Assembly: GCA_002245135.1 (NCBI GenBank)
Contig: NGBS01001161.1
Coordinates: forward strand, 62,001-126,000
Direction of reading: 5' to 3'
Source: Proteromonas lacertae
Lineage: Eukaryota
DNA: 64,000 nucleotides
Positions 37,380 to 63,215 of this stretch are shown one piece after another. The position numbers and the translations under genes were made by a program. The notes beneath the pieces were generated by a model. It was given only the letters and a program-made list of their open reading frames with translations. It was not told where the DNA came from and searched no databases. Positions within the stretch are counted from its first letter, which is position 1; the number at the start of each line of letters is the position of its first letter.

Positions 37380-39180
37380 TTAATCATTTTTTTTAGGAGG
37401 TTTACACGAAAATCTATTTACATCCATCAAATTCTTAATACTACTTGGTGTATCAATTCCCATATTCACAGTGGAATGAATTGGAGCTCCTAATAGCGTA
37501 TAATACCCTACTAAACTTGTAAATATATCAACAATTGTCTAATTTCATTATATGAAATAATTATACAGAAAAAGCAAGAATGCACAAAAGCCATAATATC
37601 AACACAACAATTCCTTGAAAATGAAATCCATCAGATATTGAAAAAGGCATTTTATCTGGCAAGTTATGAATAACAAAACGACACATCTAATCATTAAAAT
37701 AGCAATTATAAATATTATTATACAACAGCAATTAAAGGAATAGGACAATATGCTAATCTATCAGAAATTGGATAAAGAGGTTACAAATATTTATGAATTA
37801 AAAAGAAATAAATGATCAATACCTCAACAAAAAAAGGATATATCAATAAATGCTCTTTTTACTTGAGGTTCAATTAAATCATATCCAAAAATTGCTATTC
37901 ATTAAAATATAAATATATACAATTAAATTCTAAGTAATTTTCTTTAGTAAAACCATTATTTTTACATAAAAATCCATGTTTCACCCAATCAACAGCTATT
38001 TCTATAGCTCCAGCAAATAAACATCTAAGAATGTAAGTTCCAAATGTTGTTCCTGGATTTTTTGGATAAGATAATAAAACTAATGATAAATTACATAATA
38101 ATTCAAATCTTTCTACAATATCTAAACATAATGTTTGAAATAATCTATTCTGATCATAATTCTTAAACACGACAGATTTTATTTCTGAGAAATTGTTACT
38201 TAATAATAAAGAAAAGAAATAAGAAAATGAAGAGTAATTTATATTAAATAATTCTAATAATAATGATCATATAAAATGATATATCAAAAGTTACAGATAA
38301 TGTAATGACCTGTAAATATTTTATAAATGTATGAGAAACGAAACAAATTGTACAAAGAAATGTATCTTTGAATAGTTCCTTTGTTTTATTTGGTTCATAT
38401 TCACATTCATAATACAAACCATTTAATGCATCCTATTTTATATAAAAAATTAAATATTAATATATATATGTTATGATATACATGACATAATGATGCAAGT
38501 AATGTATTAGCAATATCCAACATATTATATATCACATAAAACTTCATTAATTCTTGACCTCTGATTAAATGATACAATTTAGTAAATGAGACGAAAAATA
38601 GACAATATAATGATATCAAAAATATCAAAAACCTTAAACAATCAAATAAATGAGTTCTATGTAAGTTGAGGGAATAATAACCAAATGTAATAATATATTT
38701 TATAACATTTAATATGATATAACATATTCTCAATGGCAAATATATTACATAAGATAGCCATATACATAAAGTAAGCAAAAAACCAAACCACATTGGCTTT
38801 TCTAGCGTCAATGGCAATGCAAATATTGCTCGAACTGAATCATGGTTTATTTCTGCTTTTTTGGTTGTTGCTTCATTATGATCGTAATTCCAAGAGTAGT
38901 TTCTTTCTACAAATTGCATTAGTGATAATTCTTGCATGAAATAACCAAATTTTCTTGAAATTCGATTCTTTGAGTCTGTATTTGGCGGATTAATATATTT
39001 CCTAATTCATTTATATATCATTAGTCTAAATACTTAGTTGTTCTCATTTTATAACACTTCTTTGGTGTTACTATTGGTTCCAACTAGTTAATTTCAATAG
39101 AAATACAATACAGCTGCACCATTTTTAATAATAGTTTCCAATTCAGAAATACGCTTCTCAAGTTCATCGTATTTGTCCAT
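37380..39180 (-). CDS. TAPT1: TAPT1/Emp65 (DUF747) ER membrane protein
   Basis: LYHLIRGQELMKFYVIYNMLDI, LLSNNFSEIKSVVFK.YDQNRLFQTLCLDIVERFEL, EIAVDWVKHGF, RLAYCPIPL; contains two U12-like introns. Confidence 0.9.
37781..37841 (-). other. U12-type AT-AA intron (61 nt, phase 0) in TAPT1
   Basis: GAT|ATATCCTTT...TTTTTAAT...TTTGTAA|CCT gives FIDPLYPISDRL; perfect U12 5' consensus. Confidence 0.8.
38234..38282 (-). other. U12-type AT-AC intron (49 nt, phase 0) in TAPT1
   Basis: GAT|ATATCATTT...TATTTAATATAAATTAC|TCT gives LSVTFDSSFSYFFSLLLSNNF; the nearest GT-AG alternative hits an in-frame TAA. Confidence 0.85.
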
Positions 39181-39360
39181 CTTTTGAAATTATATAAAAA
39201 TGATCGTTTCACATATAACGACTATATATTTTGAATGAAAAAGAAAAAACGAATAGACTGAGCTTTACTATTCAATAATATTATCAGACTTTATCTATCA
39301 ATCCAACAAACAAATACACTGATGAAAATTAATTAATAATATTTAGTCAAATACTGTAAT

Positions 39361-42300
39361 TTACTTACTTGCTTTCTTACTTCTACATCTCATTATCATA
39401 ACAATTGCTACACCAACAATTATACCTCCACCAATAACACATCCAATTACAATTCCAGTTATTGCACCAGAATTTGTACTGCATTCATCAATTTCAGGAA
39501 ACCATCTTGCTTCTTCATTATCAATCAATTTACATTCACGAGATTTATACCCAGAACTCATTCCTTCACATTTTTTTAATCCCAACTTTCCTACTGGAGT
39601 TTCTGGATAACCATCTTCAGCTTTACAAGATAATGGTTTAAATTCTACTTTCATTTTCACACTTGTTTCTTTAACACCATCAGATACAGTAAATGTATAT
39701 TCTTGAAGACTTTGAGCACTTTGAACCATTCCAGTTATTAATCCTGTTGTTGGATTTAATTCTAATCCTTCTGGTAATGCTATTAAAGAAATATATAAAT
39801 GAAGAATATTATTAAATACGAGGAGTTACTTTATATTCTAAGTTTTCTCCAACTGCATCAAATAATACAACATTTATTAATCCTGAAGATGAGTATGAAA
39901 CAGAAACACTTACAACTCCATCACCATCAGTTGTACTATCATCTGGTATAATGATTACTGGCTTTTCAGGCATAACAACTGTGATTCTAATATTAGCATT
40001 GGCTGTTCTACTACCTGTTATTGTTAAATGATATTCTTTTTCATTCATTCCACTTTGAGCATATCCAGATAAAAGTCCTGTTTTTACATCTAATGATAAT
40101 TTGGATGGTAAATCTATTTAAATTAAAATAAAATAAAGAAATTAATACTTGGTGTAATTATATAAGTTAAATTCTTACCAGTTACATTTAACAGTTCTTT
40201 ATTATCCATCTTATCACCTGCTGTAATTATTATACTACCAGGATTAGAAATAATAATTGGATAATCTGATATTGTCACTGATATTTTGATATCTCTTTCA
40301 GCTACTTTTTCTGTATCATTTGTAAAACATTTCACTTTATATGATGTTTCAGCTATCTCTCTCATTGTTGTCTTTCCTTTTAACATTCCATTTTCAAATG
40401 ATATACCTTCTGGTAATTTACCAACTAATTCATATTTTATATCTTTACCATAACATTTAATTATTTCATTTAATTCATAATTTTCAAAATAATATAATTC
40501 TACATTTGGACTAAATCTAGCGACTATTGGGAAATCAGAAATTGAAAATTTCACTTTGACAGAATATTCTACAAATCCATTTGAATTACTTGCTTTTACA
40601 CTGATTTCAACTGTCTCTTCTCTAAAATATTGACCAAATAATGTTCCTGTTTCACTATTAAGATGGATTCCATCAGGTAGTGTTTCAACTTCATTATAAA
40701 CAACATTTTCTCCAACTATTTTTGAGAATACTATATCTTTGAAATTATCACCTACATAAAGATCTATAGTTTCATTCAAATAAAACAAATATGGTTTATT
40801 TGAAGCAACTACTTCTAATTGTATCTTTATATCCACATCTCCATTTTCACTCTTAGCTGTAATTGTATATTCTTGTTTTGGAGTTACCTCAAGTGGTCTT
40901 CCTTGTAATTTTCCATTTGAATCAACTGTAATACCATTAATAGTTGGATTAATTGTATATTCAGTAATACTACCAAATACTGTGAATAAAACTAAATCCT
41001 TCACTGTATCTCCTGTGGTAAATGAATATTCACTTTCTTGATATGATACTATTGGTTTTTCTTTACAATTACTTGATAATTCTTCCCATTCTGGTTCAAA
41101 ACCATTTGGACAATATAATACTCTTTTTCCTGAATCACATTCCTTTGTCACTATTGAATTTGAATATGTTTCTTCAACTACACCTGCTATTGCTGCACAT
41201 TTTGTAACAGGACATATCATATATTGAATTTCTCTTATATACATAAAATACATTGCAGGTTCCCAATCAGTTAAACTTCCTACATATTCAGGAGTTGTAG
41301 TTTTAATTTTTGACATAATAGTTGTTTTCTCTTCATACAAATTTGATTTAATTGTTGGATATTCTGTTGAACCATATTTGATGTTTATATAATCATCACT
41401 CGTCTTATGTAAAACATCAGCAGTTTTATCATCATATGTTGTGTAACTTACATCCATCTTCTTAGGATGTGTAGTAGTATCAGTAATTAAATTGAATTGA
41501 TTAAATGTTCCATATGTATTTTCAGGGAATGACACTTCAACATATGGAATAACAGTATCTTTATCTGCTTTTGGAACTTCATGCTGCCAAAATGTGTTAA
41601 CTTTATCATCAAAAGCTTTAGTAGCTCTATTAAGTCCTTGTTCAGCAGATTCTATCAGTCACTGTTGTATATTGATTCAAATGAAGACAATCATCAGTAG
41701 CTAATAATAATAAATAATAGTGATATTATATATAAATACCATCCTTTAGTAATAATTTTGCCATTGAATTAACTTGTGGTTTGCCTTCTTCATTATTTAA
41801 TCTATGTAATTCAATTGCTATTGTATTTGGATTTGTTTTTATTAAATTTGATGGAATTATTAATGATATATCTTTTAAAGTATCAAATCCTTTATCTGCA
41901 AATGTATCAGCAGTTATTTCACTTCTATTATTATATTATATATATATATATATATAATATTAATATATAATACTCTGGCAAATTTCTAGTGTATATTTTT
42001 TCTCCATTTATATATAAGATAATTCCACTTTTATGACCAACATTTAGTTTTAAAGCAATTTCTTTGCTTAAATCTGGGAAATCTTTAATAAGTCTTAGAT
42101 AAACAGTTGTTGTTGAATAATCTGGTAATTCTGATAATTTATATTCAGTCCAACTCTTTTTAGCAGTTTTACTATTCCATCCTTCAGAATAAGTTGTTGA
42201 ATATTCCCACTTAGCTGATAGAAAATACAAATAAGTAACTATAATATAAAATATAGAATGAAATATATACAATCATATTCTTTCATAACTTCATATTGAC

Positions 42301-45300
42301 CCCAACTAAATCTTCCAATTGCATCTAATTTCACATGTCCTTGATATGTTTCAATATACATACAATAATCATTTGAATTTTTATCTGCGCTTATTACTTT
42401 TGATTTATATTTATCTTGTGGTAAACACATACTAATTTCATGTTGTTCATTTCCATCAAATGAAAATTGACTTATACTATAGATTTCTTCTTCTTTACTA
42501 TTCTTAAGTGAATATTCTATGCAAGATCCTACAGTTGCTGTTTTTACTTTAATTCTGTATAGTATCTTGTTTTCATTACTACATTCAGTTGTTATATTGG
42601 ATGAAATTACTTCTAACTTCAAAGTTGTTTTATATTCTCCTGCATTATTTGATGCTGTTATTGTATATTCAGTTAATGGAAATACAGCTGTTGTTTTACC
42701 ATATATTCTTCCATTTGTCGTATTAAATACCAAACCATCAGGTAATTTCTTATCTATTGTTGCTATTTCAAAATAAACTTCTGATTTTGGTGCTATATAA
42801 ATATCTTGATCAATATAGAGTTTATGGGATGATGGGTTATATGAGATAATAGGTTTTGATATTTCAAAATTCAATACATACTTCATATAGTTTTGATTTA
42901 TGGAGGTGAAATGAAGCACTTTCATTCCATTCAAATAGAAATCAGAATTCATTGTTTCGTAATTATTATAATTTGTTGATATTAGACCAGTGTATAGCAT
43001 ATATTTTCCTGGAACAAAACAGAATGATCTATGCACAGGTAAATCTCCAACTTCTTGATAATAAGTACTATATTTATCAAAAGTTGTTATACCTTTAACA
43101 TCTTGAAATCTAACACTAATTGTCTTATATTGTTTATTCCATGTTGAATCAATTATATGATACATCATTACTTCTCCATCTGCACATCCATTTACAACAT
43201 AAAATAAAACTGATTCAATGATTTGATCATTCTCTGTTACACCTTTCGCTGTTATTTTAAGGGATAATCCATTAGCTATACTTCTAGGAAATGCTGTTAA
43301 AGTAAATATCTCATTGTCATATGAAAATCCTGGCGGTAATGACTCAAATGAATATGAAATTGCCATTCCATTTTCAGTTGATAGTAAAAATTGTTCTCTT
43401 AAACCTAATGTTAATCTTAATTCAGTTGATTTTTCACCAGTCTTTATATTGGTAAAATAAATTCCATTAACTTTTAAAGTGCCTTGAATTGTGATATAAA
43501 TTGTTGATGTGTAGGTCTTATCATCACTTGAAGTTGCTATTACATTGTATTTTTGTAAAGTAATTCCTTTAGCTCCTTCTGCTGGAATTCCTGTAATCAT
43601 ACCACTGTTCTTATTGATTGATAATCCTTGTGGTAAATCAATATCTGTTTTAAATGATTTAAATGTAATTTCATTGTTATATTTCTTAACTATATTTTCA
43701 TTAATTGCTAAACCAACTGTATATGTAGCTATTGGAGTTTCATATTCAAATATTTCATTGTTTGGAACATAATAATACATGGAATCTGGTACTAATTCGA
43801 ATTTTTCTCCACCTTTCTTCTTATATTCTAAAGCAATACCACTTGGTCCATTCTGTTGAACATACATAATCTTTAAATTGTATGAGTCATCATTTAATGT
43901 AAATACACCTTGAGCTGATGTATAATTGTGACATCCACTGTTATCTACTACCAACTCATTATTAATATATAACCAACTAGCATCACTGGATGATAATTGA
44001 AACTCATATTCACCTGCATCAGCTGCTTTATTTATTCTTATATAACCTTCCCAATAAACTGCAAAATCTTGATAAAAATCTTTTCCTAAACCAGCCCATA
44101 ATATCTGTTTCTCACTTAACTCATGATTTGGATTCTTTTCTATTCTTGCGACTTCTGTTTCGGTATTACTCATTGATGTATCATATGGAGTATTACATTG
44201 TCTATCAAATGATGATATTTTCAAATAATATCCAACAATCCCATTGAATTTATGTTCTATTAGTATTTACATAAATAACTATTATAATATACCTGTAACT
44301 CTTAAGGTGAATATGACTGTATTAGTAATAGAATACTTATTTGAACATGTAAGGTGATAGGTTTTTGGAATTTCTAATTGTTCTTGTGGATTTCCTGAAA
44401 TAGAATTCTTTTTAATTTCTAAACCATTAGGAAGTGTTTCACCATCATTAAACTTACAGGTATAATCTTCTGAACCAGTTATTCTGAAATTAACTGTAGA
44501 AACAGCATCATACAATAACACAAACTCTGATTTTTCCATTGATAAGTCATAAACTGGATGAGCTTCAGAATCATCTATTAAATAGATAATATATTTAATA
44601 TGTATATACGAGTTGTGAATGATATTACTGATGGAGATTCATCACCTGGCTTTTTATATAAGAAATTGAATATCCAAGAACAAGTTTTTTTATTATATGG
44701 TATAAAAGAGAATAGTTGAATATAAACTACATGTTCTCCTGCTGATAAATCTACACTAATAGTCTTGCTTACTGTATTAGCAACACATTCTTCAGTGTAT
44801 AATTTGGGTATATCTAAATCATCTATAAATACTTTAATAATCATTCCTTCACTTATTGTAGCAATAAATTCATATTTTCCTGTATTATCAATGTCAATAT
44901 GACCTTCAAATTCAGCTGTAAATGAATAAACCTCACTTGCAGTAATACCTAATTTCTTATACCAAGTATAATAATATGAATCAGCTGCATCTAAACCAGA
45001 TAAATCTGGTATAATTTTACTGTATGATTCTCTAACTGTAACATCAATGTTATTATCATCACAATCCTTTTTATCTAAGGTATTAAATTTAACCCATACT
45101 CCATTTTTATCTTCAGCATTAACATGTTTTAATAATATTGTAGTTGTTTTAATACCAGCACCATTAGTTGCTTTAACTGTCAATGTCACATCCATATCTT
45201 CATGATAATTAGTAAAAGAAAGTATTCCTGTTTTGGAATCTATGGTAATACCTTTAGCTGAAGAAGGATCTCTCACAATGTCATATAAAACAGGTTGACC

Positions 45301-45622
45301 ATCAGCCTTACATGTGAATTGCTTATTAAATACACCAGAAATGCTTAATTCAGTAATACCACAGTCTACATATGATGGAGCAATTACATCATTTGCCATT
45401 TTTGATGTCTTTTTATATTCATAGTCATTTCTATGTTCTAAATCACTGGAGTGTGAATTTGCAACACCTGCATAAACTTTTCTCAAGTAGTAATTGCCAT
45501 GATCTCCTCTTTCAGCTGTTGTTGCTGTTGCAACTTGTCCAACTACAACACAGATAGCTATATTATAGATAAATCGTTACTATACTGAGTAATAATTCAA
45601 GATAGAATGAATAATAATTCAT
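39361..45622 (-). CDS. Large type I surface protein with PA14 domains and putative Ig (He_PIG-like) repeats
   Basis: Signal-like N-terminus; PA14 motifs (FAVYWEGYI..AGEYEFQLSSSDASWLYIN; FEGHIDIDNTGKYEF); repeated LP.GL...TG.I.G.P; C-terminal TM GAITGIVIGCVIGGGIIVGVAIVMIM and basic tail; ~8 introns, one indel near 41650. Confidence 0.82.
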
Positions 45623-46009
45623 GTTATATTTTGGCGTGTTTAGGGGGTATTGTTATAACTTCCATATTTTTAAATTGGTTTGTGTGAATTTTTGGTACTC
45701 CAAAAAATATAATATTCTAATAAGGATAATTTAAAACTGTCATAACCTGTAGGTTACATATATATGTGACTGTTCAGCTTATAAGCATTTACAGAAACAA
45801 ACGATTGGTTGTAATCTAGTGTTTTTTGTGTTAATCTTCATATAATCATGATTGTAATTACATAATTATGCTATGTATATCATTCTAAACATATATATTC
45901 TACTGATTTTTGTTATAAAGAAGTTAAAACTATTTTCATCATAACAACAAAAAATATATATAGAAATAATATATTTCCATTAATTGAATAAAATATTAAA
46001 AAAAATAAC

Positions 46010-46743
46010 TTACCACTTTCCTGAATAACGAGATTCTGGAATCTTCCAAGGATATGCTCTTCCCGGAACTGGTGGTAAACCCTTGCTAATATAATCATCA
46101 ACAATAGATCCAGCTTCTTTTTCCCACCACTATATCAATAAAACAATAAAAAATATATATAAATACTTCATGTGGTAGATGATCTGGTTCATGTGCTTTG
46201 CATAATGTCTCAAACTCTTTATCACTAATAGATTTAACAAATGGAGCTAAATCATCCTTTGTTTTTACTGAATGAATATAACCTTCTTTTGGTACAACCC
46301 ATTCTATTACTTGAATATGTTGAGCTTCTCCTGCATTCCACATATGCTTCAATTCTGCTTTATAAGAACTTGGAATATGTTTATTATCTGGATTGTAAAT
46401 AACGTTGATAACTTCTGGTCGGCATTGTTGTCTATCCAATTCATGGTGATAGTTGTATCCAACATAGGGATTTCCTTCACGTGGAACAACAGGATGTTCA
46501 TTAAATGAACGATCTCTATTAATTATTGTATAATATAAAAACAATACATTGGCGATGGATAACGAAAGCCTTTAGATATTGAACCAGGTGGATTTCTGGA
46601 AGGGATTATAAAAGTGGGATGAAATGTTACATAATCTTTAATCTAACAGCATTATATAAGTATTAAAAATATACCTTCTTGTATGTTTTATTTTTGATAA
46701 TCTTATCACAAAGCTTGTCAGCTGCTTTAAATAACTTATCCAT
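46010..46743 (-). CDS. Probable complex I accessory subunit NDUFA7/B14.5a-like protein
   Basis: Spliced reading includes GFRYPSP...NPY...and a C-terminal GLPPVPGRAYPW, recalled as similar to fungal/plant NDUFA7; similarity is weak. Confidence 0.45.
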
Positions 46744-46942
46744 TGAGATTTATGAATTGACCTATGTATTAAAAATAACACACTGTTGAATATATATAAA
46801 TATGACGAGAATAAAAAACAAGTAGAAGAAGATAAAAAGAAATTAAAAATACTCAAAAAAGCTTGAGAGGATTTGATATATCTCAGATTTTATTTCATTT
46901 TATCGTTCTATAAACAACATTTTGTATTAAGAAATCGTAAAA

Positions 46943-47644
46943 ATGGGTACTGTTACTTCAAGAACTATGCGAGCATGGAAATACAAAAATGATCGCAGGG
47001 TTTTGTTTTTAGGCTTATCAGGTTCTGGTAAAAGTTATATCTTTTTATTTGAAATTATATCTACTATCCTTAATAATGTACCAATTATATCTTTCATTAT
47101 TAATGGTAAAACACAACAAGATCTACCTAAAACTGAGACATATGTAATACATAAATACAGAACACAAGGATTGAAGTTTTATATTTGGGTATTTATAATA
47201 ATAATAATCAATAAATAGGATGTAAGTGGTTCAGATGCAGATCGTTTGCTATGGAGGCATTATTATACAGGATGCAATGTATAATAATAAAAAATATCTT
47301 AATTGAATAGGGAATAGTGTTTGTAATTGATGGAGGAGATAGTGAATCTTTGGATTTAGCTAAAAGAGAACTTGAAATATGTGTAAAAGATAATCAATTA
47401 ACTGATAGTGTAATATTAGTATTAAATAATAAATGTGATATTGAGCCACATATTACAAATGAAGAATTATCAAAGCAATTCAATTTGGAAGAGTATTTCT
47501 TATATTTTCTAATTATATATTTGTGATAGAATATGTAAAAATCATAAATATACACTTATGGAGGTATGTACAATAACAGGATATCATATAAATGATGCTG
47601 TGGATTGGATGTGTGAAAATCTGCAAGATATCCCTAATACTTAA
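46943..47644 (+). CDS. Divergent ARF-like small GTPase
   Basis: MG N-terminus, GLSGSGKS P-loop, WDVSGS...LWRHYYTG, FVID, LVLNNKCD; three GT-AG introns and one AT-AC intron. Confidence 0.88.
47037..47081 (+). other. U12-type AT-AC intron (45 nt, phase 1) in the ARL gene
   Basis: AGT T|ATATCTTTT...TATCCTTAATAATGTAC|CA; canonical TCCTTAAY branch site; removal restores GSGKSSIISFI. Confidence 0.88.
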
Positions 47645-47828
47645 TGTTTATTATAATATAAGATATATATATATATATAAATTGAATATGTATTGTGTAA
47701 TATGTTTGAAATGTTAATTTATCTAAATTACATTCTTTTTCTTTTTAATGAGCAAGTTATCTAAATATATTCTTCTCTATTTGTATGGTAAAAAAAGGAG
47801 TGTATATAATGTATATTTTAATTAAAAA

Positions 47829-49079
47829 TTAAGTTAACAAATGTAAAGGAAAGAAGCCAGGTTCGACATCAATTGGATTATCAACTTCATCTTGTAACTT
47901 AGATTCAAATGGAGGTATTACTCCATGCTCTAAACATACAGATGCAAATGCTTCTTTAGTAACAGTATCACTTAATGGATTTTTATCAATATCTAACATT
48001 TCTTTAAACATAATTAACACTATTTCTTCATTCAATTGTGTAGATTCTGATAAACAATGTTTTAATAAATCTGATAATTCACTAAGTGATAATGTCTGAC
48101 TTTGATCATAATCAAACCTTACAAATAATTCTTGTAATATAGCGCCATTTATTTGATTTTGTTTATCCCAAGCATTCATACATATTTCCAGTATATTATC
48201 TAATTCACATTTTGTTTTACTTATCATCTTCTTAGTTGTATCTCTTTCTACTTCTTCAATTTTTCTTAATTTTTCTAATAATTCATTTCTTACAGTATCA
48301 TGTAAAGGCAATCGATCAATTGCTAAAAATGGAACAGATTTTGGAAAAACTTCTAAGATTGCTTTTTTTACATTTACTGTTGGAACATAATAATAAGTTT
48401 TAGTGTTCAATGCACGAGTTAATTCTCCAAGTGTTGCTATTGGTTGATCAGAAGCTAATCGATTTAATAATCTCAAATATGCGTGACACATTCTAGGTGA
48501 ATATTTTTTACTTTCAGTTATTCCTGTTAATTTACTGAATAAAACAAATCTCTTGTGTTTAGAACCGAATTGTCTTATAAATTTAATTAATCCAATTGTA
48601 TTTTGACTAGCTACAGATTTCATACCAAATTTTCTTAAAAAATAATCGTTTATAAATTGAGGTAATGACATTCTAGCTTTACCTAGACAATCATCATGAT
48701 AATCTGCTGGTATTTTCATTCTATATATATCTTGTATCATTGTCATCACTTGTCCTGCATTAAGTTGTATAAATTCTGCATCTTCTACATTTGTGAATGA
48801 ACTCCATGGATTGGTAATGATTGATAAACTTGGTGGTCGCTTAGTTGCAGCTAATTCAGATCTTAATGAATCTACTTCATTTTTGAAAGCTAAATTTTCT
48901 GTTGTTATTTTTGTATTCTCTAATCTTAATCTATTTATATAATTATTATATTTTTATATTTTTATACTTTTTTACTTCATTTATTAATACTTCTCTTTGC
49001 TTTACCATCACTCCTTCTACTTCAATTCCTCTTTCATTTTCTTCTTGTTTATTTTGCCAATATAAAGCTTCTTCTTTCT

Positions 49080-49116
<37 letters not shown>

Positions 49117-50323: not shown

Positions 50324-50412
50324 TTTAAAAAATTAAAAATATAAAACGACTTTGCTTGAAGTAATCAAGCCTATTCAATTATATTTCTTCATATTTTTAA
50401 GAATATAAGATA

Positions 50413-51853: not shown

Positions 51854-51920
51854 GTTTTTTAATTTCTTGGTTAATCAAAAGAGTTATCAGGAGCACCCCA
51901 AATTAAAATCTATTAAATAC

Positions 51921-53187
51921 ATGCAATCTCCTCACATTGATGATCCAAATTCCCCAGAAACGGTACAAATTGTTGATAGCAATGAGAAAAATGTAAGTGA
52001 AATGGATGTATTCGCTTATATGTGCAGAGATCGACTAACTGAAACAGAAAAAGAAAATTATTATGAAAGAGCGAAAGATATTGTTGAACAAAACATGTTA
52101 GATGATCCAGATTTTTGCAATAAAGGGAATGGAAGACAAAAAGAAGATGAAGCTTATTATTTAGAAATGGAAGAAAAAACTCATGAAGCAGAGAGTAAAA
52201 TATTTATGGAAGAAGAATTAACAAATGCTTGTGATACGTTGCTGTCAATAATGCAGACTATTCGCTCAATTCTAGTTCCTCCTCATAAAGAAACATCTTC
52301 AACAACAGAAACAATCACCTCACCATCCCCATCAACACCTATGAGTGATTCATTCGATGATTCAGAAAACATAAATAATAGTGATTCAATCGGAGTAGAT
52401 TTTACAGGAACATTATTAATAAACAGTATATCAACAGATGAGGAATTTACACTTGATTTGACTCCAGGAACAAATAATATTCTACAAGGTAAAGTAAAAA
52501 TAAGAGGATGTAATATAATTGAAGGGAAAATCGTTATAGAAGATTCTAGATATTTACACACACCTGCTCATTTTTCAATATCACCAGCATTACCATATTC
52601 ATTATTTCAACTAAAAGATTGTAAAAATTATGTGACAAAAATAACATTCATTTTAAACCATTTAAAAAAACATGATTCAACACTCTCAACAACTGAGATT
52701 GGTACAGTATTTATTTATTATTTTATTTTATATAGCAAATTGCAGATATTCGATTAACAATACAACAAGCAGAGACAGTTTTATTAAACAGATATCAGTA
52801 TTCACCATTATCTCCTTTTACAGTATCTAATTCGAATACATCTTTTAAAGTTGGAGCTAATGAGACAGCTATTGTTGATTTTTCAGTATTTTCTTATATA
52901 CATATTAATTATATTTTATTTTGATTTAGATATTTAGAGCTTGTCTGAGAGTTGCTGTTGTATTTCTATCAGATAATATAAATTCAACAAAAATCAATCC
53001 AAATACAGATCCTTTGAAAGGATCAATTGTTCATTCAAATGTAATGCTTAAAAGTAAAGTATATCATGTTGAAGATGAGTTGTACTTCTGTTATAATGTA
53101 AAGAACTTGTTTAAAGTATCAGAATTGTTACATACTGCACATTTGCTGATTGATGTTCTACAGAATAACTATAATAATGTATTTTAG
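51921..53187 (+). CDS. ROGDI: Rogdi/Rav2-like protein
   Basis: Helical N-terminus, LQGKVKIRGCNIIEGKI, YSLFQLKDCKNY, IRLTIQQAETVL, IVDFSIFRACLRVAV match the Rogdi layout; two introns; in-frame upstream ATG at 51852. Confidence 0.65.
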
Positions 53188-53257
53188 CTGTTTTTTTGTT
53201 TTTGTACAGAACTTTATAGAAAAATCAATACATTTCTTGAAATTTCTTCTATTGTTT

Positions 53258-54795
53258 ATGATGGATTCACAGCCTTTAGAAGCTAAAAAATCGCATTTTA
53301 AATTTCAGAAGAGATATTTAGTGTCTGTTATGTGTCATATAGCTTTATTTATCGTATATCAACTAATTTTCTTTTAATTAGGTTTACTTTATGAGAGTTG
53401 ACATGTCAGTGACTGCTATTCCAATGATGGATGAGTATGGATGGTCTAGTATCTATTTTACATATACTTTTTCTTAGAACAGATGAAATCCTATATTCTA
53501 TCATCATTCTTTTGGGGTTATATTGTTTTGCAAATACCATCTGGATGGTTAGCAACGAAATATGGAGGAGTATATCTTTTTTCAAATGATTTTTGTTCAT
53601 TTTGTTCTCTTTCATTGTAATTACTCCAGTATTAGGTGTTGGCGTATTTATGACAACGGTGTTAACATTTTTAATACCAGTATGTGCTAAATATCCATGG
53701 TTATTAATGATTAATCGATTCTTTGTTGGATTATTTGAAGCAACATCATATCCAACAATTCATGCAATTTTAACTAGTTGGTGTCCTTTCAAAGAGCGAA
53801 GTACTCATGTAGGATTCATTTGGTGTGGTGCTTCGTTAGGAACTGCGTTTGGAATGCCATTTGCAGGTGTATTATGTGATAAATGGGGTTGGAGAAGTGT
53901 TTATTATGTTTATGGCTTTCTAGGAATAATTTGGGCAATATTTTGGTTTTTGTTAATTAAATCTGATCCTGCTAAAGACAAGCATGTTTCTGTAGAAGAA
54001 TTAAATTATATTGAAAGTGAAACAAACAATGATATAAGTAATTCCTTAATAAAAAATGATAATGATAATCTTCTAATAGCAGTAACAGCAACAGAAGAAT
54101 CTAATTTGTTAGATGAAACAAAAGTTAAATCTAATGACAGAAATAAATCATCATTTACTGATAAACCAGTTCCATGGTTGGGATTTATAACAAATACATC
54201 AGCATTAGTATCAGTGATGAGTCATTTTACATGTAATTGGTGTTTTTATCAATTAGTTACATATATGCCAACGTATATGAAAGAAGTATTAAATGTTGAT
54301 GTAGCTAAAGCAGCTTATGTTTCCATGTATCCTTATCTATTTATTGCTTTTGTCAACGTGTTTGGTGCAATTTTAGCTGATTATATATTAGCAAAAAATG
54401 TGATTAGTAAAGTTTATCTTAGAAAAAGTCTATTTGTATTTGGAGTTATTTCAGCAGGTTTATTTCTAATGTTATCTTCATTTTCAACTTCAAAAATTCC
54501 ATGTGTTCTTTTTATGACATTATCTGTTGGATTATCTGGATTTGCTACACTTGGTTATTCACCAAATATCTTGGAAATTAGTCCAAGATTTGGTGGAATA
54601 TTATTAGGAATAGCTAATACATTAGGTGCATTACCAGGTATTGTAGCTCCAATTATAGTTGGTGTTATTACTACTCAATATCCTGGTGCAAAAGGATGGC
54701 ATTTTAGTTTTTTAATCCCAACATGTTTGTATGTGTTTTCTGCTATTGTTTTTCTACTTTTTGCTAAAGTTACTCCTCAACCTGATCTTAATTAG
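53258..54795 (+). CDS. MFS anion:cation symporter (SLC17/sialin-like)
   Basis: YFMRVDMSV, ILSSFFWGYIVLQIPSGWLATKYGG, RFFVGLFEATSYP, WCPFKERS, GWRSVYY, LLGIANTLGALPGIVAP. Confidence 0.92.
53572..53624 (+). other. U12-type AT-AC intron (53 nt, phase 2) in the MFS gene
   Basis: GGA GT|ATATCTTTT...TCTTTCATTGTAATTAC|T CCA gives KYGGVPVLGVG; GT donor with nearby AG acceptors is out of frame. Confidence 0.8.
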
Positions 54796-54889
54796 ATAAT
54801 TATATATTATTATTTAATTGGTGTTATGATGTTAATAATTTATTTAATTCAATTCAAAAAACAAATATATATATTAATATATTTCATTT

Positions 54890-55983
54890 TTAATTATAAG
54901 TTCTCCAATCAGTATATTCAGATGGTTTGGTTTTCAATATATCATCTATCTCTTTCATTATTTCATCAGTCAATTTGGGTAAAACTTCCAAACATTTTAA
55001 ATCTTCCTCAAGTTGTTCTTTCTTTGTTGCTCCTAATAACATCACACTCACATTCTTATTCTTTAACACCCATGCTAAATTTAATAAACTCAAACTACAT
55101 CCCAACTTATCACTCACTTTCTTTAATTCTTTTAATGCATTGTTTAATTCATCCAATGTTTTGAAAGGACTATCATCTAAAATTATTCCACTTAAAAAGT
55201 CTTTCCATCCAGGTATATCTAATCTACTTCCTTTTGGTATTCCATTAATGTATTTTCCACTTAATACTCCACTTGATAATGGAGACCAAATTGTCAAACC
55301 AAGTTTATCACTTTCATATAAATAGCTAAACTCTTTTTCTACTTTTGTACGATGTATTGAGTTGTATTGTGGTTGTTCAACCACTGGACCAATTAAACCT
55401 AAACGATGACTTATCTCTTACACTTAAATTAAAGAATATAAATATTATATTTGTAAAAAAGAAAAATGATATAATTGCTCTAGTGATTTGATCAGCACTC
55501 CATTCACTTGTTCCCCAATATAAAGCCATTCCTTTGTTAATTACATAATCAAATGCTCTTACTATCTCTTCAATTGGAGTAAATTTATCAGGTCTATGGC
55601 AGAATACTACATCTACATATTCCTAAATCCAATCTTTTTAAGGAATCTGTTAATCCTTCAATTATATGTTTTCTAGATAAGCCTTTTTCATTCACATATC
55701 TTGTTTCACCATTTGGTACTACACCCCAGAATAACTTGGTTGATAAAACATAACCACTTCTTCTCACTCCTAATTGTTTTAAGGCTTTACCAACAATCTC
55801 TTCAGATATACCATTACCATATATTTCAGCAGTATCAAAGAAGTTTATACCACTTTCAAAGGCTTTCTTTATTAATTCTATACCAACTTTCTCATCTACT
55901 TGAACTCCATAGATATAAGTACCAAATCCAATTCGAGATACTTTTAAACCTGTATTTCCCAAGAAACTATATTCCATTGCCAT
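54890..55983 (-). CDS. Aldo-keto reductase, Kv-beta/AKR6-like
   Basis: [80 protein letters not shown]; apparent extra G near 55622. Confidence 0.92.
55418..55472 (-). other. U12-type AT-AA intron (55 nt, phase 0) in the Kv-beta-like AKR
   Basis: ATT|ATATCATTT...TTCTTTAATTTAAGTGTAA|GAG gives [21 protein letters not shown], matching family spacing. Confidence 0.8.
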
Positions 55984-56496
55984 TTTAGATTAAAAGATAT
56001 AAGGATGAATCTTTTATTGAATTTTGAATTTTGTTAAATGAAATTATCTTTACAAAACACATATTATCTTTATAAACACTTACATTTGTATACTTGAAAC
56101 GCATCATTTTGAATTTGTATATCCTATACATTGATATATACATTCATGACGTTGAAGACGAGCATATTATTTGTGTACAATATAACTCATCTGTTTAAAT
56201 CATAATATAACATTTAAGAAAACATAGAAACTCATTATTAACAATAACATTACTCTATTACTTCTAAATATGCCAATCTATTTGCAGATAAGATTGTAAC
56301 TCTTTTGTACTTTAAAGACATTTGAATACATTTCTATATTTCAATTTACGATATTTCAAAGGAAATATTCATAACATCAAGTATATAAATAAAAAAAGAA
56401 AATGAAATGATTTGAAGTAATCAAACCTATATGATATAAAAACAATAAATAACCAAAACAACATCCTTAAACCAAGAAAATAATACAAATTATTAT

Positions 56497-57759
56497 TTAT
56501 ATTTTCATCAACTCTTCAACTGTAACATTTCTATTCTCTTCTTTCACACAATATTTCATCATTTTTATTATATCTTCTACATAGTTCTTCATTTCTTCAT
56601 CAGTAAATTGGGGATAAATATAATCATTACTAATATAGCAGCCAGTTCCAGCAATAGTGAAAGAAAACATTACCATACCATCATTATTTGGGTTATCAAC
56701 ATTAGAAGCTAAGAAATTTTGACTTAAAACATCAAATGAAAATTTACCTTCATAATGTTTTTGATTTGGTCTTCTACCCATTGTACAACATGTTATAGTA
56801 TGTTTTGGACACTGTCGATAATCATCAGCTAAAAAGAAATCATATAATTGTTGTTTTTCTTCTATTGCAGTATGTAATTGCTTTGTTAAATCAACACAAA
56901 TATCAACGATCTTATCTTCTTTATTTATTTTCTTTAATACATAAGAAAAGAATCCACCACATAATATATCATCATCTAATACAGGAGGATCAAATTCTGC
57001 TCTTCCTCGAGATGTTGCCATTGAATGGAACAGTATTGATTTTGAAAAATCATCTATCTTAAACATCTTCATTTGACTTAATAATGTTGTTATCCACAAT
57101 AAACCTTGGAAACTGCAATGAACATCATGAGTGTATTTCAAGATTTCTTTTAAATCATTTTCAACAATTAAACCTGTATAAACACGACTATACATCTTAG
57201 AAGGATCTTTACATTCATGCAAATAAGTTGGTAAGGCTAGTGTTGGAATAGTTTTATCAATATTATAATCTTTGATAGTAACTTCTTTTGGAATCTTCAT
57301 TCTACCTTGTGCTGAAACATAACTATGAACTTTTGGTTCAACAGTTGGATCGCATAAATGCAAGCATAGCTTATGACATAAATCAGTACATGAAATTCCA
57401 TCTACCATACCGTGATTGTAAATTCCTATAATTTCGCTCTCTTTTTTCTCTTTGTTAGCATAAATAAAATATTGTGATGTGTTATTGCATCGTTTATGGG
57501 TTGCCTTCTTTATATCATCCCAATATTCTTCATCTGAACAAGATTTCTCGAAATAATGCACTGGTGGATGGTAATTGTCTTTATATTCCAATATATCAGT
57601 ACCTTCTCTATATTCTGAAGACAAAAAGGAGTATTCTTTAGTAAGAATGTAAATTGCTTCTTCTATTTGCTCTTTACTTACATATTTGTTGATTTGGAGC
57701 TTCCAACTGCAGGAGCATACACGAACTATTGATTCGTATCTAGTTAATTCAGCAGACAT
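56497..57759 (-). CDS. CoA-dependent acyltransferase (condensation/alcohol acetyltransferase fold), intronless
   Basis: HxxxDG motif (IYNHGMVDGIS), 420-aa single ORF. Confidence 0.7.
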   Translation of the reverse strand: MSAELTRYESIVRVCSCSWKLQINKYVSKEQIEEAIYILTKEYSFLSSEYREGTDILEYKDNYHPPVHYFEKSCSDEEYWDDIKKATHKRCNNTSQYFIYANKEKKESEIIGIYNHGMVDGISCTDLCHKLCLHLCDPTVEPKVHSYVSAQGRMKIPKEVTIKDYNIDKTIPTLALPTYLHECKDPSKMYSRVYTGLIVENDLKEILKYTHDVHCSFQGLLWITTLLSQMKMFKIDDFSKSILFHSMATSRGRAEFDPPVLDDDILCGGFFSYVLKKINKEDKIVDICVDLTKQLHTAIEEKQQLYDFFLADDYRQCPKHTITCCTMGRRPNQKHYEGKFSFDVLSQNFLASNVDNPNNDGMVMFSFTIAGTGCYISNDYIYPQFTDEEMKNYVEDIIKMMKYCVKEENRNVTVEELMKI

Positions 57760-57911
57760 GATAATAAAAATGATATACAGATAAGAATAATCTAGAAATT
57801 GTAAAGATGTTTACAAAACACTTCAAAAATTGTTTTTTAGCTTTTTATAAACCCCGTAACGATAAAATATTTATTTAAAAAATATAAATGGATTAAATTG
57901 TAAAAAATGAA

Positions 57912-60900
57912 TTAGATTTTAAGCTTCATCTGGATCTTTATTACCTTCATCAGCGAAGAATAAAAATACATCATCTAATGTGGTTTCTAAAATTGAATAT
58001 TCATCAATTGATAATTTTTCTTTATTATTCTCCAATTCTTCAAAAATCTTTGAAAATTGAATATTTCCTTCATTTATCTATTTATTATTATTATTAAATC
58101 ATGATACATGATATATTCGAATTATTGAACTACTTTGAGAGGTTAAAACACCCTTTGGATATAATTCTTGAATCATCTTTTCTACTTCTTTTTGATTTTC
58201 TTCAAGATTATTCACATTCTCTATTTAATAATAATTATAATAATAATATACTATTTAATCTCACTGTTAAGAAATATCCATTACCATAATCTCTCTTCAA
58301 ATCAGCACTTGTTCCTAAACATCTCATATTTCCATGAGTTAAGATTCCTATTCTATTACACAAGGTTTCAGCTTCTTCCATTGAATGAGTTGTTAATACT
58401 ATCACTTTACCATTCTCTCTGATATCTTCAATAAAATTCCATAAACTTCTTCTTGTGATTGGATCCATTCCTGTACTTGGCTCATCTAAAAATACTACTT
58501 TAGGATTTCCTATCAATGATAATAATACACTCATTCTTCTTTTGTTTCCACCACTTAAACTAGTAATTCGACTATTTTTCTTCTCAGTTAGATTTACACT
58601 TTCAAGGTAATCCTTTATAAGCCTTTTTCTCGTATCTTTTTCAATTCCAAATAATAAAGTATAACCATTCAAATATTCCAAAGGTGTGAGTGAATCATAT
58701 AAAGCATCAAATTGTGGGCAAACTCCTAAACTACTTCTAGCTTTTTCTAATTCATTTGTTATACTATAATGATTAATATAACCTTCTCCTTCAGATGCTA
58801 TTTCTATTCCTGTTAAGATTTTTATCAATGTTGTCTTACCTGCTCCATTTTCACCTAATAAACCAAATAATTCTCCTGTTCCTATTCCTAATGATAATCT
58901 ATTCACTGCTTGGAAGTATTTACCATCACTCTTTTTAAATACTTTGGATAATTCTTTTATATGAATTAAATCATATTTTGATGAATCATTTCCTTTTTCT
59001 TTAATTCTTTCTACTTCTCTTTCAACATTTTCATCTCCTCTCTCTTCATTTCCTTTCTCTAAATCCACTTTTGTTGATTTGAAAAATGTAGCTGATTTTT
59101 TCTTTTCTAATTTAAATTGCCACTCAGGTAGATATATTTCTACATAATACAGAACCAAACTGAAAAGAATAATCTCAACAAGGAAAATAATAAACATAAA
59201 AATCAGATCTTTATCAGGATCAAATAAATCTTTAAACGAATATGGAACACCTGTCTTCGCTGCTGATTCTAATAATGCTAATTCATAATAATAATAATAA
59301 TAATAATAATAATGTATACAAAATGCTCTATATATTCCATATGGTGGTAGTATTCCACATAAATTCATTACTAATTTAGATGGATTAGTAGTAAAAGAAG
59401 TAAATAGCCAAGGAACTAATGTCATAAATTGAATAACCTCGCCATGCCACTGTTGAACAGCCTATTATACATTATATCTATTTAAAGATACTTGTAAAGA
59501 TCTGAATGGTAATATGGACACATATCCAAATACAGCTGAAAGAGGTGAATAAAGTATTACCATTAATACAAATGCAAAGAAATTGTTATCTGTAACTCCT
59601 TTGAACGAAAAACAAGCCATTATTATAATACAAATAATGAATGGTATAAGTGTTGTAATTGTATCAACAACAGCATGAGATAGCCAATATATTTTTCTAT
59701 TCAAAGATGATATTAACAATTGACTTTTTATATTTTTAGACTTTTCTCTAGCAATATTTTCACCATATATACTACAGATAAAACCAAATATTGAAGCAAT
59801 AATGATCATTACACCTCCATTCGCAAAGGAAATACCTGTAGTAGGAGATATAACAGTCTATTACATAATATATTACACAAATTATAACTATACATCTTTC
59901 ATTCTCATATGTTTTACATTTATTTCTTTCCCATTACTTACTTTTCTATAATAACTATTGTAAAACAAATAAGTGATTGCTCTACTATTATAATTGATAT
60001 TACCATTAGCTATTACATTTAGTCCATTATCATCATATAAACAAAATGGAATTATTTTATTATTGTAATTAGTATTTCTTTCGTATGTATCTACTCTTAT
60101 TTTCTCTATTTCATCTCTTGTAACAAGTTTAAATTCGTAATTATCAGGAAATTGTTCTTTTATATTTGAAACGAGAGTATCAATTGAAGGTGATGAAACA
60201 TATGGAACAAACAGTCTAAATGATATATCAAAATATTAGAATACTTTTCACTTGAATATTGATGAGGATATTTACTCACTTCAAATTCATATTCATTTAA
60301 ATCCTAGATCAATTATAATCAAATTATATGTAAAATATAATATTATATACCCTTAAAACTGTTAAATCTATTACACTACATACAAGCGCCATAATGATGG
60401 GATAATAAATGGCAAACATTGTATTCCAACCTTCTCTCATCTGAGTCTTTGATAGCATATAACAGAATCCTTTAAATTGATTCCATAAAGACATATTAAC
60501 AGTATAATCCAATAATTTCACTTTTACTCTTGATTCTGATTTCCTAATTTTATCAACAGTTTCATTCTTTATTCCTTCTGCCATTTCAATTTCAGTTGTT
60601 TTAGAATCTGGAGACTGTATATCAGGGGATTGTGTATCTGGAGATATAGAATTTGAATTAAGCTCTTGCTTACTCCTCTTATCTAATTCAACGAATACAT
60701 CTTCTAAACTTGGCATTGTCATTGAGATTGATCCAAAATGTAATTCTTCTTTTTTCTCTTCCAATTTCTTAAATAATGTTGATAATTTTGATCCTATCTT
60801 CTAATGGTAAGATATATTTCAATTGCACTTCCATTATCATTCACTCTCTTATATTCAATTATCTCTTTTATTGTTTCATTCAATTTTTCTATCTCACAAT

Positions 60901-63215
60901 TTTCATTCTTCTTTATATTCAAATGATAACCTCTTCCATATTTCATCTTTAATTCTAATGAAGTTCCTTGGGCTTGAATTAAACCTCCAGACATTACTGC
61001 TATTTCATCTCCTAATGCATCAGCTTCTTCCATTGAATGAGTTGTTAGGATTATTGTTTTGTTCTTCTTCTCTTCTTCTAATAAATTCCATACTTTTCTT
61101 CGATTATAAGGATCTAATCCAGTCGTTGGTTCATCTAATACAACTATCTCAGGATTTCCTATTAATGATAATATCAATGATAATCTTCTCTTTTGACCTC
61201 CACTGAATGTACCAGCACATTCATTCATTTTAAATGTCAATCCAACTGATTCTAATAATCTTTTACCTTGTTCTCGAAGTTCATTATCTTTCAATCCTTT
61301 CATATTTCCATATAATAATATATGATCCATTGGAGTTAATTGATCATATAAAATATCAAATTGAGGACAAACACCAAGACTCTTTCTTACTTCTTCTTTA
61401 TTCCTTATTATACTATTTCCATTTATATAAATTTCACCTTCATTGGGAGTTAATAATCCTATTGTCATATTCAATAATGTCGTTTTACCTGCTCCATTAT
61501 GACCTAATAAGGCAAAGATTTCATTTCTCTTTATCTTTAGATTTACTCCTTTCACTGCATTAAATTCATTCTTTTTACCTTTATTGTAGGTTTTATGAAT
61601 ATTTTCTATAACAATTCCGTTTGTTTCATCTTTTTGAGTATTACTACTTTGATTATTTCTCTTATAATATGAAGGCATTAAAAAGTAACAAAATGGTAAT
61701 GGAGTTTCTAAATTCTGTTGAACTACTTTTACTAAATATAAAGCAACAAAGAAATATAAGAAAACACAAATTGATTGAACAATAAATGCATCTTCTGTAT
61801 AAGCACCGTAAATATTTATATTATTCCAATCCATTCCTTTACGATATGCTTCTCCTTCTGTTATATCATGAACAAATATTGCTATTTAATTACAATAATA
61901 GATGATATAAATAAATACAATAAGTCACTGTAGGAATTAAATAGAATATTCCTACAACCACTCTATGAACATCATAAGCAATTAATAAATATTGAACTAA
62001 ATAATACAACAATGGTAAAAATGATAATAATAAAATCATCAATTACATTATAATTAAACGAACTAATAATATAAGTATAAGTGAAAAATTAAAAAAGATA
62101 TTGAAAAAAGAGTTGATGCTTTCTTTACACACACACTTAGAATAAATGTAAAAGGGATGGTACTTACTGAAAATATGTATGAATAAACATAAAACAGACT
62201 GTAGGAAGTATAACGAAGTGCTTTTACTACATATAATCCTAACAATAATATTGCATTTGGTAATATTAACCATATTATTTCAAATACCAGCCATGATAAC
62301 CAATACATATATTCACTCATTCCGTTCATTAATAACATGTCTTTAATTCCTCTTTCTTTTTCAGAACCTAATAATACTGTTAAAGCTTGCATTGTTGTAA
62401 AAACATACATATAATAATACATTGGTTGAATATATTGTTGGACATTAAAAGCATCTGATTCTTCTGGAAAACCGAATCTACTGGAATACTATATGATAGA
62501 GTATATATATCGATTTAACAAAATACTTTAATCAAAGAATCACTCATTTTGGATGATGATTTTTTATTATATATTGCTCTATAAATTGCTTCTTCTAAAC
62601 TACTTATACCATTCAAAAAGAAAATATATTCTTTTTGATAGGGTATTTTTGTATAGTCTAATTCTGAAGGATTTGTTTGATTGTAATTAAATATTCCATA
62701 GTTAGTTGTATAATTATATCTCAAAACAAAACTAGGATTATCTTCAGAATACTCGCTTAAGTCTATCACTGCAAACATATTGGCCGGACATTTTGCAAAA
62801 AAATTATCATACATATCATCATAAGAACTAAAGTCCTTCAATGAATTTGACGTAACACCAATAGTTCTATTAATTCATAAAAAAATTTAAAATACTGTTC
62901 AATTAGTGATATTAAAGCATTTGTATCATCATTCTTAGGGTAATAAGCAATATAATTAGCAACATTTTTGATCTAGATCATAAAATAAGTGATGAGTCAT
63001 ACATCAATAGAAGGTGACACTGGAGAAGATGGAATTTTAGGATATTCTACATAGTAATAATCTATTGTATAGCTAAACATCCAAATCCAAAACACGGTAT
63101 ATAATGGGATTACAAACTCCACAAAAGCAGAGAAAGGCTTTCTTCTATACACCAACACATTTTTCTTAAGCAGAATTAGTAACTGCTGAGTAATAGAAGC
63201 TCCTTTCTTTGACAT
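57912..63215 (-). CDS. Full-size ABCA-family transporter
   Basis: QLLILLKKN N-terminus; two NBDs (GHNGAGKT..FSGGQKRRL..LDEPT; GENGAGKT..LSGGNKRR..LDEPS); EKERGIKD; ~12 introns; indel near 60795. Confidence 0.95.
62043..62101 (-). other. U12-type AT-AA intron (59 nt, phase 0) in ABCA
   Basis: TCA|ATATCTTTT...TTCGTTTAATTATAATGTAA|TTG gives ASTLFSLMILLLSFLP; the TAA just before TTG is in frame, so no upstream AG can serve as acceptor. Confidence 0.78.

What the first reader, a model, noticed from the sequence alone, without database searches (positions are those of the whole stretch)
37781..62101. Dense set of minor (U12-like) introns with AT-AN ends, half of them AT-AA
Seen: six introns in five unrelated genes (TAPT1 x2, ARL, MFS, Kv-beta AKR, ABCA) begin ATATCCTT, ATATCTTT or ATATCATT. 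Each has a TCCTTAAY-like element mostly 7-10 nt from the 3' end, ends TAC or TAA, and is 45-61 nt, longer than the ~25-40 nt GT-AG introns. Five are needed to restore the frame; the sixth restores the P-loop helix. Known: U12 introns are usually well under 1% of introns, mostly GT-AG, and AT-AA is a rare variant; Blastocystis retains short minor introns. Inference: six against roughly 110-120 GT-AG introns (eye count) is ~5%, with no convincing GT-AG U12 intron seen. This suggests an expanded minor-intron system with a relaxed terminal nucleotide and variable 5' position +6.
Basis: partly seen in the sequence, partly recalled or inferred. Interest (0 to 1): 0.88.

Follow-up and report, generated by a model that had tools for sequence, protein, structure and literature searches.

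The report
Dense all-A-type minor introns, half AT-AA
In an AT-rich flagellated protist, five or six of about 120 predicted introns in one 64-kb stretch start with the signal of the rare "minor" splicing machinery and half of them are predicted to end in AA instead of AC, which would make this one of the densest and most unusual minor-intron systems known if it holds for the whole genome; no RNA was available to confirm the splicing.

Summary
Five sites carry 49-61 extra bases that break the frame. Motif-blind scans against homologue profiles put an ATATCHTT donor among the best cuts in all five, 8-68 bits above the best GT-AG cut. The sixth (ARL) is likely, not proven. All six read ATATCHTTTT, have a branch-point-like element (p=1e-4 against 115 GT-AG introns) and are longer than major introns. 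Three end in AA. None of the 115 GT-AG introns looks minor. These are best read as U12-type AT-AN introns, like the short AT-AC-rich set of Blastocystis. Open points: 4-5% comes from one window (95% CI 1.4-10.5%; Blastocystis ST1 has 1%); AT-AA is 3 of 6 (CI 12-88%); no RNA run, genome or snRNA was available; the assembly has one-base slips. The scan has noted single AT-AC minor introns in other protist genomes, twice with AT-AC dominance; none of the notes I was shown reports this density or AT-AA share.

The parts
38234..38282 (-). TAPT1 intron A, 49 nt, AT-AC, phase 0
   Evidence: Motif-blind scan: 154.8 bits, rank 7 of 3337; best GT-AG 86.7; gap-free alignment to 10 of 10 homologues shown
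37781..37841 (-). TAPT1 intron B, 61 nt, AT-AA, phase 0; only perfect ATATCCTT donor
   Evidence: 138.3 bits, rank 14 of 880, all top-12 cuts are 61 nt; best GT-AG 127.9; no in-frame AC or AG end
47037..47081 (+). ARL (Arf-family GTPase) intron, 45 nt, AT-AC, phase 1, in frame, perfect branch element; likely, not proven
   Evidence: G1-lysine to G3-aspartate distance is 37-38 in 32 of 32 Arf proteins, 53 unspliced, 38 spliced; best of the splice-like cuts (125.0 vs 121.7 GT-AG, 118.4 none) but a signal-less cut downstream scores 132.7
53572..53624 (+). MFS (ACS/SLC17-like) intron, 53 nt, AT-AC, phase 2
   Evidence: 166.0 bits, rank 10 of 3833, all top-12 cuts are 53 nt; best GT-AG 157.9; gap-free to 9 of 9 homologues that cover the site
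55418..55472 (-). Kv-beta-like aldo-keto reductase intron, 55 nt, AT-AA, phase 0; only intron of this gene
   Evidence: 240.5 bits, tied rank 1 of 2853; AT-AG three bases later 233.2; GC-AG 229.6; GT-AG 213.4; family by PDB search
62043..62101 (-). ABCA transporter intron, 59 nt, AT-AA, phase 0
   Evidence: 211.4 bits, rank 152 of 3116; best GT-AG 184.7 deletes a membrane helix; gap-free alignment at the junction; next in-frame AT-AN end is at 98 nt, 196.6 bits
37380..39180 (-). TAPT1 host gene (two AT-AN and several GT-AG introns)
   Evidence: Pfam DUF747; 977 relatives at E<=0.001
46943..47644 (+). ARL host gene (one AT-AC and three GT-AG introns)
   Evidence: PDB hits to Arf/Arl proteins; open frame after splicing
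53261..54795 (+). MFS host gene (start approximate)
   Evidence: Pfam MFS_1; gene model
54890..55983 (-). Kv-beta-like host gene, with a one-base slip near 55620
57919..63215 (-). ABCA host gene, with slips near 60800
   Evidence: Pfam ABC2_membrane_3 and ABC_tran

Best explanation
Six stretches of 45-61 bases interrupt five unrelated genes and all begin ATATCHTTTT; they are likely introns removed by a minor (U12-type) spliceosome, three of them at a predicted AA end, and they likely make up a few percent of this organism's introns. Shown by sequence: the extra bases, the shared donor, a degenerate TCCTTAAY-like element 7-10 nt from the end, and a 3' end of the form WKTAM. Inferred mechanism: U11-48K reads ATA at +1 to +3, U11 pairs from +4 on, and the run of T at +7 to +10 would make up for the loose +6; U12 pairs with the branch element; the 3' end is set mainly by distance from the branch A (9-12 nt here), so a 5' A tolerates C or A as last base. 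Inferred history: the major donor here is GTAT in 114 of 115 introns, so a GT-AG minor intron would already be a usable major intron and could convert easily, while AT-AN introns need two end changes and stay trapped; strong AT bias would then erode C at +6, in the branch element and at the last base. Phase 0 in 4 of 6 hints at gains, as proposed for Blastocystis.
For: Motif-blind scans. T at +9 and +10 in 6 of 6, beyond the motif used to pick them (48% and 57% in GT-AG introns); C at +5 in 6 of 6 against 6 of 115. Branch element better than in 115 GT-AG introns, p=1e-4, p=6e-4 without ARL; shuffle p=0.0018 without ARL. G at -4 in 4 of 6 against 6 of 115, p=3e-4, post hoc. Length of 45 or more in 6 of 6 against 6 of 115. 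TAPT1 is a minor-intron gene in human, mouse and maize. Blastocystis has all four minor snRNAs and short, 77% AT-AC, 49% phase-0 minor introns; named best TAPT1 hits are stramenopiles. AT-AA is the commonest non-canonical minor type. Role of U11-48K, the 11-13 nt optimum and easy GT-AG conversion: PMC3584512, passages. That U11's 5' A-run pairs with the T-run is recalled.
Against: Splicing was not observed and no minor snRNA lies in the window (the genome is not held). Only 1 of 6 donors and 1 of 6 branch elements is perfect. All three AA ends are phase 0 and are the first open position after an in-frame TAA, which biases a reader towards AA; margins over the next in-frame end are 4.9, 7.3 and 1.8 bits. 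In 4 of 5 loci a signal-less cut scores 1.2-6.3 bits higher. ARL is not fixed by homology, and its unspliced frame aligns locally to Arf residues 15-54. The window has at least seven one-base slips by eye; one lost C would turn TAPT1-B into AT-AC, though 9 of 11 modelled slips are extra bases. All six lie in 24 of 64 kb, with 0 among the first 72 GT-AG introns (range statistic p=0.03-0.07), so the window may overstate the genome. None of 80 metagenome TAPT1 loci has an intron at site A.
Confidence: 0.85

Rival explanations
1. The introns are real U12-type introns, but the window is a lucky draw: genome-wide the organism resembles Blastocystis ST1 (about 1%, mostly AT-AC) and AT-AA is a modest minority. 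This rival shares the U12 identity and denies only the expansion and the AA parity.
For: One window; CI 1.4-10.5% and 12-88%. Clustering in 24 kb. None of 7 notes on 5 other windows of this genome is about minor introns (unchecked AI notes, weak). Best of 100 windows at 1% would reach 5 or 6 with chance 0.49 or 0.12.
Against: Single-window p=0.0013-0.0067 against 0.98%; 3 of 6 AT-AA has p=0.017 at the plant share of A-type introns (690 of 6660) and 0.0017 at the animal share (823 of 18,226). Five unrelated genes are involved.
Confidence: 0.35
2. They are AT-AN introns of the major spliceosome: ATAT...TAA is this genome's GTAT...TAG with G changed to A at both ends, as in the rare U2-type AT-AC class.
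For: The major donor is GTAT in 114 of 115 introns and shares TAT with these. U2-type AT-AC introns exist (PMC1557818, passages). No minor snRNA was seen (window only).
Against: C at +5, T at +7 to +10, the branch element and the greater length all separate the six from the 115 major introns; none of these is expected for a U2-type AT-AC intron.
Confidence: 0.07
3. They are artefacts of an error-prone assembly or decayed genes: GT-AG introns with damaged ends or chance motifs next to slips.
For: At least seven one-base slips in ordinary genes, two of them in host genes. The MFS site has a major-type GT donor two bases upstream. A chance motif pair exists on the antisense strand.
Against: Each of five loci has 49-61 surplus bases against homologues; GT-AG would need base changes at both ends in several loci; signals not used for picking (+9, +10, -4, branch element) agree across loci; a GT-AG reading of MFS loses two residues or inserts seven.
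Confidence: 0.04
4. For ARL alone: no intron, but a 15-16 residue protein insertion after the P-loop.
For: Open frame; local ungapped match to Arf 15-54; the best unconstrained cut lies downstream, 7.7 bits higher.
Against: That cut has no splice signals and is coding-like (5.5 against -8.4 nats); the AT-AC cut has the only perfect donor-branch-end pair among 62 motif sites and restores the distance found in 32 of 32 Arf proteins.
Confidence: 0.2

Closest known systems
Blastocystis sp. ST1 minor introns (PMC5608401, section Introns read; PMC10639083, section Minor intron enrichment and passages read)
   Same: Short, A-type dominated (77% AT-AC), phase-0 rich (49%), longer than about 30-nt major introns; probably a related lineage.
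   Different: ST1 has 346 of 35,412 (1.0%) or 253; here 4-5% in one window. The passages read report no AT-AA excess; here 3 of 6. Donor +6 is C in only 1 of 6. This organism has CFAP251, whereas Blastocystis lost nearly all cilia genes (PMC12129017, passages). Most supplements of PMC5608401 could not be seen and its logos are figures.
Physarum polycephalum expanded minor system (10.1101/2020.10.12.336362, abstract and passages read)
   Same: High density, C/T at +6, branch A about 10-12 nt from the end, non-canonical ends including AT-AA.
   Different: More than 20,000 of 175,198 introns, mostly GT-AG among perfect donors (3021 against 627), changed TTTGA branch motif; AT-AA is 27% of about 1,000 non-canonical ones. 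Here all are A-type and the branch motif stays TCCTTAAY-like.
A-type (AT-AN) minor introns of animals and plants (PMC8280824 passages; PMC10639083 supplement rows; PMC1557818 passages)
   Same: 5' A with variable last base; AT-AA is the commonest variant; TAPT1 is a minor-intron gene.
   Different: AT-AA is 1.1% (animals) and 3.0% (plants) of conserved minor introns, and GT-AG is 71-74%. Human TAPT1 has one GT-type minor intron; its position relative to these two was not determined.

Membership tests
U12-type (minor) introns | Extended 5' site [GA]TATCCTT | tested here: met
   ATATC and T at +7 to +10 in 6 of 6; +6 is C in 1, T in 3, A in 2, so five carry one mismatch
U12-type (minor) introns | Conserved branch sequence TTCCTTRAC | tested here: met
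   Degenerate but enriched: 0-3 mismatches, p=1e-4 against 115 GT-AG introns, shuffle p=0.0018 without ARL
U12-type (minor) introns | Short branch-to-3' distance (optimum 11-13 nt), no polypyrimidine tract | tested here: met
   Element ends 7-10 nt before the end, branch A at -9 to -12; the spacer is A/T/G-rich (standard from PMC3584512)
U12-type (minor) introns | Removed from RNA at these boundaries | not testable with these tools
   No run could be listed
U12-type (minor) introns | U11, U12, U4atac, U6atac and minor-specific proteins in the genome | tested here: inconclusive
   No Rfam match in the 64-kb window; whole genome not held
U12-type (minor) introns | Position conserved as a minor intron in other lineages | tested here: inconclusive
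   TAPT1 is a minor-intron gene elsewhere; 0 of 80 metagenome loci have an intron at site A, but many look like transcripts or intron-poor algae; other four genes not tested
U2-type AT-AC introns | Signals match the genome's major consensus apart from the end bases | tested here: not met
   +5 C 6 of 6 against 6 of 115; T-run, branch element and length differ
Physarum-type expanded minor system | Genome-wide share far above 1% | tested here: inconclusive
   5 of 120 or 6 of 121 in one window, CI 1.4-10.5%
Physarum-type expanded minor system | snRNA changes that match the changed intron signals | not testable with these tools
   No snRNA sequence available
Blastocystis-type minor introns | Short, A-type dominated, phase-0 rich | tested here: met
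   45-61 nt, 6 of 6 A-type, 4 of 6 phase 0

The most novel reading that the evidence does not exclude
This flagellated stramenopile, probably of the lineage next to Blastocystis, has a genome-wide minor-intron share of 2-5%, second only to Physarum among species surveyed, made up almost wholly of A-type introns of which a quarter to a half end in AA, with a minor spliceosome adapted to a loose +6, a long T-run and a free last base, and with new minor introns still being gained.
Probability: 0.4. Interest if true: 0.82.

Novelty: new variant of a known kind. Interest (0 to 1): 0.6.

Why it matters
Minor introns are under 0.6% of introns in nearly all species surveyed, with Blastocystis near 1% and Physarum as the one large expansion. 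A second independent dense system, all A-type and rich in AT-AA, would give thousands of natural substrates to test how the minor spliceosome picks its 3' end, how A-type introns arise and convert, and whether A-type helpers such as CENATAC co-evolve. It would also mean that standard annotation breaks several percent of this organism's genes: the GT-AG-only finder here mis-spliced five of them.

Tried and rejected
No whole genome is held. No RNA holder was listed for 52300-62200. Rfam: 0 matches in the window. The word-based TAPT1 search found none of 96 candidates; the HMMER search then gave 977. Close relatives (P0001, P0002, P0013, P0173; 86-93% identical) begin after the junctions and carry no names or DNA, so they do not test the introns. 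The first MFS scan was in the wrong frame and is discarded; one search replaces it. The 4-sequence Arf profile ranked the ARL intron 765 of 3143; the 32-sequence profile ranked it 216; an ARL6-type pattern found 0 viral contigs; the ESM Atlas could not take the sequence. Further AT-AN introns: looser donors (ATATC, ATAT, AT) added no convincing case; of 16 [AG]TATCHTTTT sites, 6 are the candidates, 5 antisense, 2 inside major introns, 2 outside genes, 1 coding. GT-AG minor introns: 6 of 115 have C at +5, all 26-30 nt and without the T-run; rejected. Blastocystis-type stop codons made by polyadenylation: 7 TGTTTGTT sites, no clear case. The TAPT1 tree leaves the window's protein on a long branch, in no strongly supported set. 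Literature: 'Proteromonas' with 'minor spliceosome' gave 0 papers; no listed paper held both Proteromonas and U12; the Larue and Roy supplement has 0 hits for Proteromonas; the 2023 Current Biology paper on Proteromonas and Blastocystis is not held and may bear on novelty.
Full report
Setting. The window is 26.5% GC, holds about 28 genes and 50 kb of coding sequence, and has no whole genome on hand. The lineage is not fixed. The named best TAPT1 hits are stramenopiles: 3 of 3 with organism names, and oomycetes, Pinguiococcus and Cafeteria; the tree leaves the protein on a long branch. The window encodes CFAP251 (E=3e-100), and Blastocystis has lost nearly all cilia genes (PMC12129017, passages). 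A flagellated relative such as the Proteromonas lineage (27% GC in that paper's table) fits, as a lead only.

The six sites. For each I tried every deletion of 20 to 90-160 nt near the site that leaves an open frame and scored the product against a profile of homologues: 92 TAPT1 proteins (cut from 107 of 149 hits long enough), 10 MFS, 79 of 80 bacterial Kv-beta-like proteins, 104 of 120 ABCA, 32 Arf proteins from 44 loci. Motif cut against best GT-AG cut, in bits: TAPT1-A 154.8 against 86.7; TAPT1-B 138.3 against 127.9; Kv-beta 240.5 against 213.4; MFS 166.0 against 157.9; ABCA 211.4 against 184.7. The motif cut is tied first in Kv-beta and 1.2-6.3 bits below signal-less cuts in the other four. 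Alignments are gap-free at the junctions. ARL is weaker: splicing restores the 37-38 residue distance seen in 32 of 32 Arf proteins and is the best splice-like cut, but ranks 216 of 3143.

Signals. Against 115 confident GT-AG introns (those starting GTA with score of -0.9 or more, one false call dropped, three ARL introns added by hand), the six share ATATCHTTTT. The best match to TCCTTAAY has 2, 2, 0, 2, 1 and 3 mismatches and ends 9, 8, 7, 9, 10 and 10 nt before the 3' end; no major intron does better than 2 (13 of 115 reach 2). G stands at -4 in 4 of 6, including all three AA ends (post hoc). No GT-AG intron has the minor donor. Decoy motifs are rarely chosen by the gene finder, but one chance pair with a 1-mismatch branch element lies antisense at 26563.

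The AA ends. Each is the first open position after an in-frame TAA, so a bias is possible. Each is also the best-scoring in-frame acceptor for its donor, none has an in-frame AC nearby, and only Kv-beta has a near AG alternative, 7.3 bits lower and one residue short. Nine of the 11 are extra bases, which cannot convert AA to AC; a lost C could do so for TAPT1-B.

Density. 5 of 120 to 6 of 121, CI 1.4-10.5%. Blastocystis ST1 has 346 of 35,412 or 253 by a stricter count, 77% AT-AC and 49% phase 0. Single-window p is 0.0013-0.0067; as best of 20 windows, 0.025-0.13. All six fall in the last 27 kb. AT-AA is 10% of A-type minor introns in plants and 4.5% in animals (computed from supplement rows); 3 of 6 has p=0.017 and 0.0017. 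My judgement, not a computed result: about 0.75 that the genome-wide share is 2% or more, about 0.6 that AT-AA is a quarter or more.

Mechanism. Shown: surplus bases, shared donor, branch-like element, WKTAM end. From the literature: U11 does not pair with the first three intron bases, which U11-48K reads; the branch-to-3' distance matters, optimum 11-13 nt; GT-AG minor introns convert to major ones by simple changes while AT-AC to GT-AG switches are rare (PMC3584512, passages); A-type introns vary at the last base, splice less efficiently and depend on CENATAC in human cells (PMC8280824, passages). Inferred: the T-run offsets the loose +6 (U11's 5' A-run is recalled); distance sets the 3' end; the GTAT major donor drains GT-AG minor introns and leaves A-type ones; AT bias erodes C. 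C-to-T change would predict AT-AT ends, and none of six has one, which hints at a preference for A as in plants (4 AT-AT against 690 AT-AA).

Age. TAPT1 has a minor intron in human, mouse and maize (10.1101/2020.07.18.209528, passages; PMC6717393, supplement rows), of GT type in mammals; I could not place it relative to these two. KCNAB, SLC17A, ABCA and ARL6 have 0 hits in that paper's 8 supplementary files; ARL2 and ARL16 are listed. None of 80 metagenome TAPT1 loci (best 80 of 257) has an intron at site A. Recent gain is plausible, not shown.

Papers seen. PMC10639083: passages, one section, supplement rows. PMC5608401: one section, passages, part of the supplements (most were not searchable). 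PMC12129017, PMC8280824, PMC1557818, PMC3584512, PMC3564746 and the RBM48 preprint: passages. Physarum preprint: abstract and passages; its supplements are closed. PMC6717393: supplement rows. PMC10581693: abstract. Novelty searches.

Verdict. Real U12-type AT-AN introns with high probability, a new variant of a known kind. The surprising parts, the density and the AT-AA share, rest on one window and no RNA.

Noticed in passing
whole window: The major 5' splice site is unusually narrow: GTAT in 114 of 115 introns, G at +5 in only 10 of 115, TAG at the 3' end in 109 of 115. A +4 U preference is linked to loss of METTL16 or SNRNP27K in yeasts (PMC10581693, abstract); not tested here.
   Followed up: partly
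near 12925, 19890-19940, 20173, 28079, 28632, 41650, 55620, 60800: One-base frame slips in ordinary genes, mostly extra bases; likely assembly errors.
   Followed up: partly
13650-13684 (+): A 32-nt GT-AG intron appears to split the start codon (A|TG) of a gene that looks like ribosomal protein P2 (name recalled).
   Followed up: no
22497-23129 (-) and 33249-33881 (-): Two copies of a 181-codon gene with identical introns, 10.75 kb apart, flanking a 2,650-codon repeat-rich gene with a ubiquitin hydrolase domain and two slips; possible recent duplication or element ends.
   Followed up: no
33998-36905 (+): CFAP251 orthologue, a motile-cilium protein.
   Followed up: yes
39360-45622 (-): About 2,000-residue surface protein with PA14 and putative Ig domains.
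   Followed up: no
26563-26606 (+): Near-perfect U12-like donor, branch element and AA end on the antisense strand of a long reading frame; taken as a chance match.
   Followed up: partly
15156-15327 (-): A 172-nt first intron, five times the median length, in a gene that looks like clathrin light chain (name recalled).
   Followed up: no
L161-L204: 32 distinct Arf-family GTPase genes in viral-collection contigs, many labelled as giant-virus assemblies.
   Followed up: no
L109:85-147: A TAPT1 gene from a metagenome appears to have a short interruption without GT-AG ends one codon after the site of intron A.
   Followed up: no
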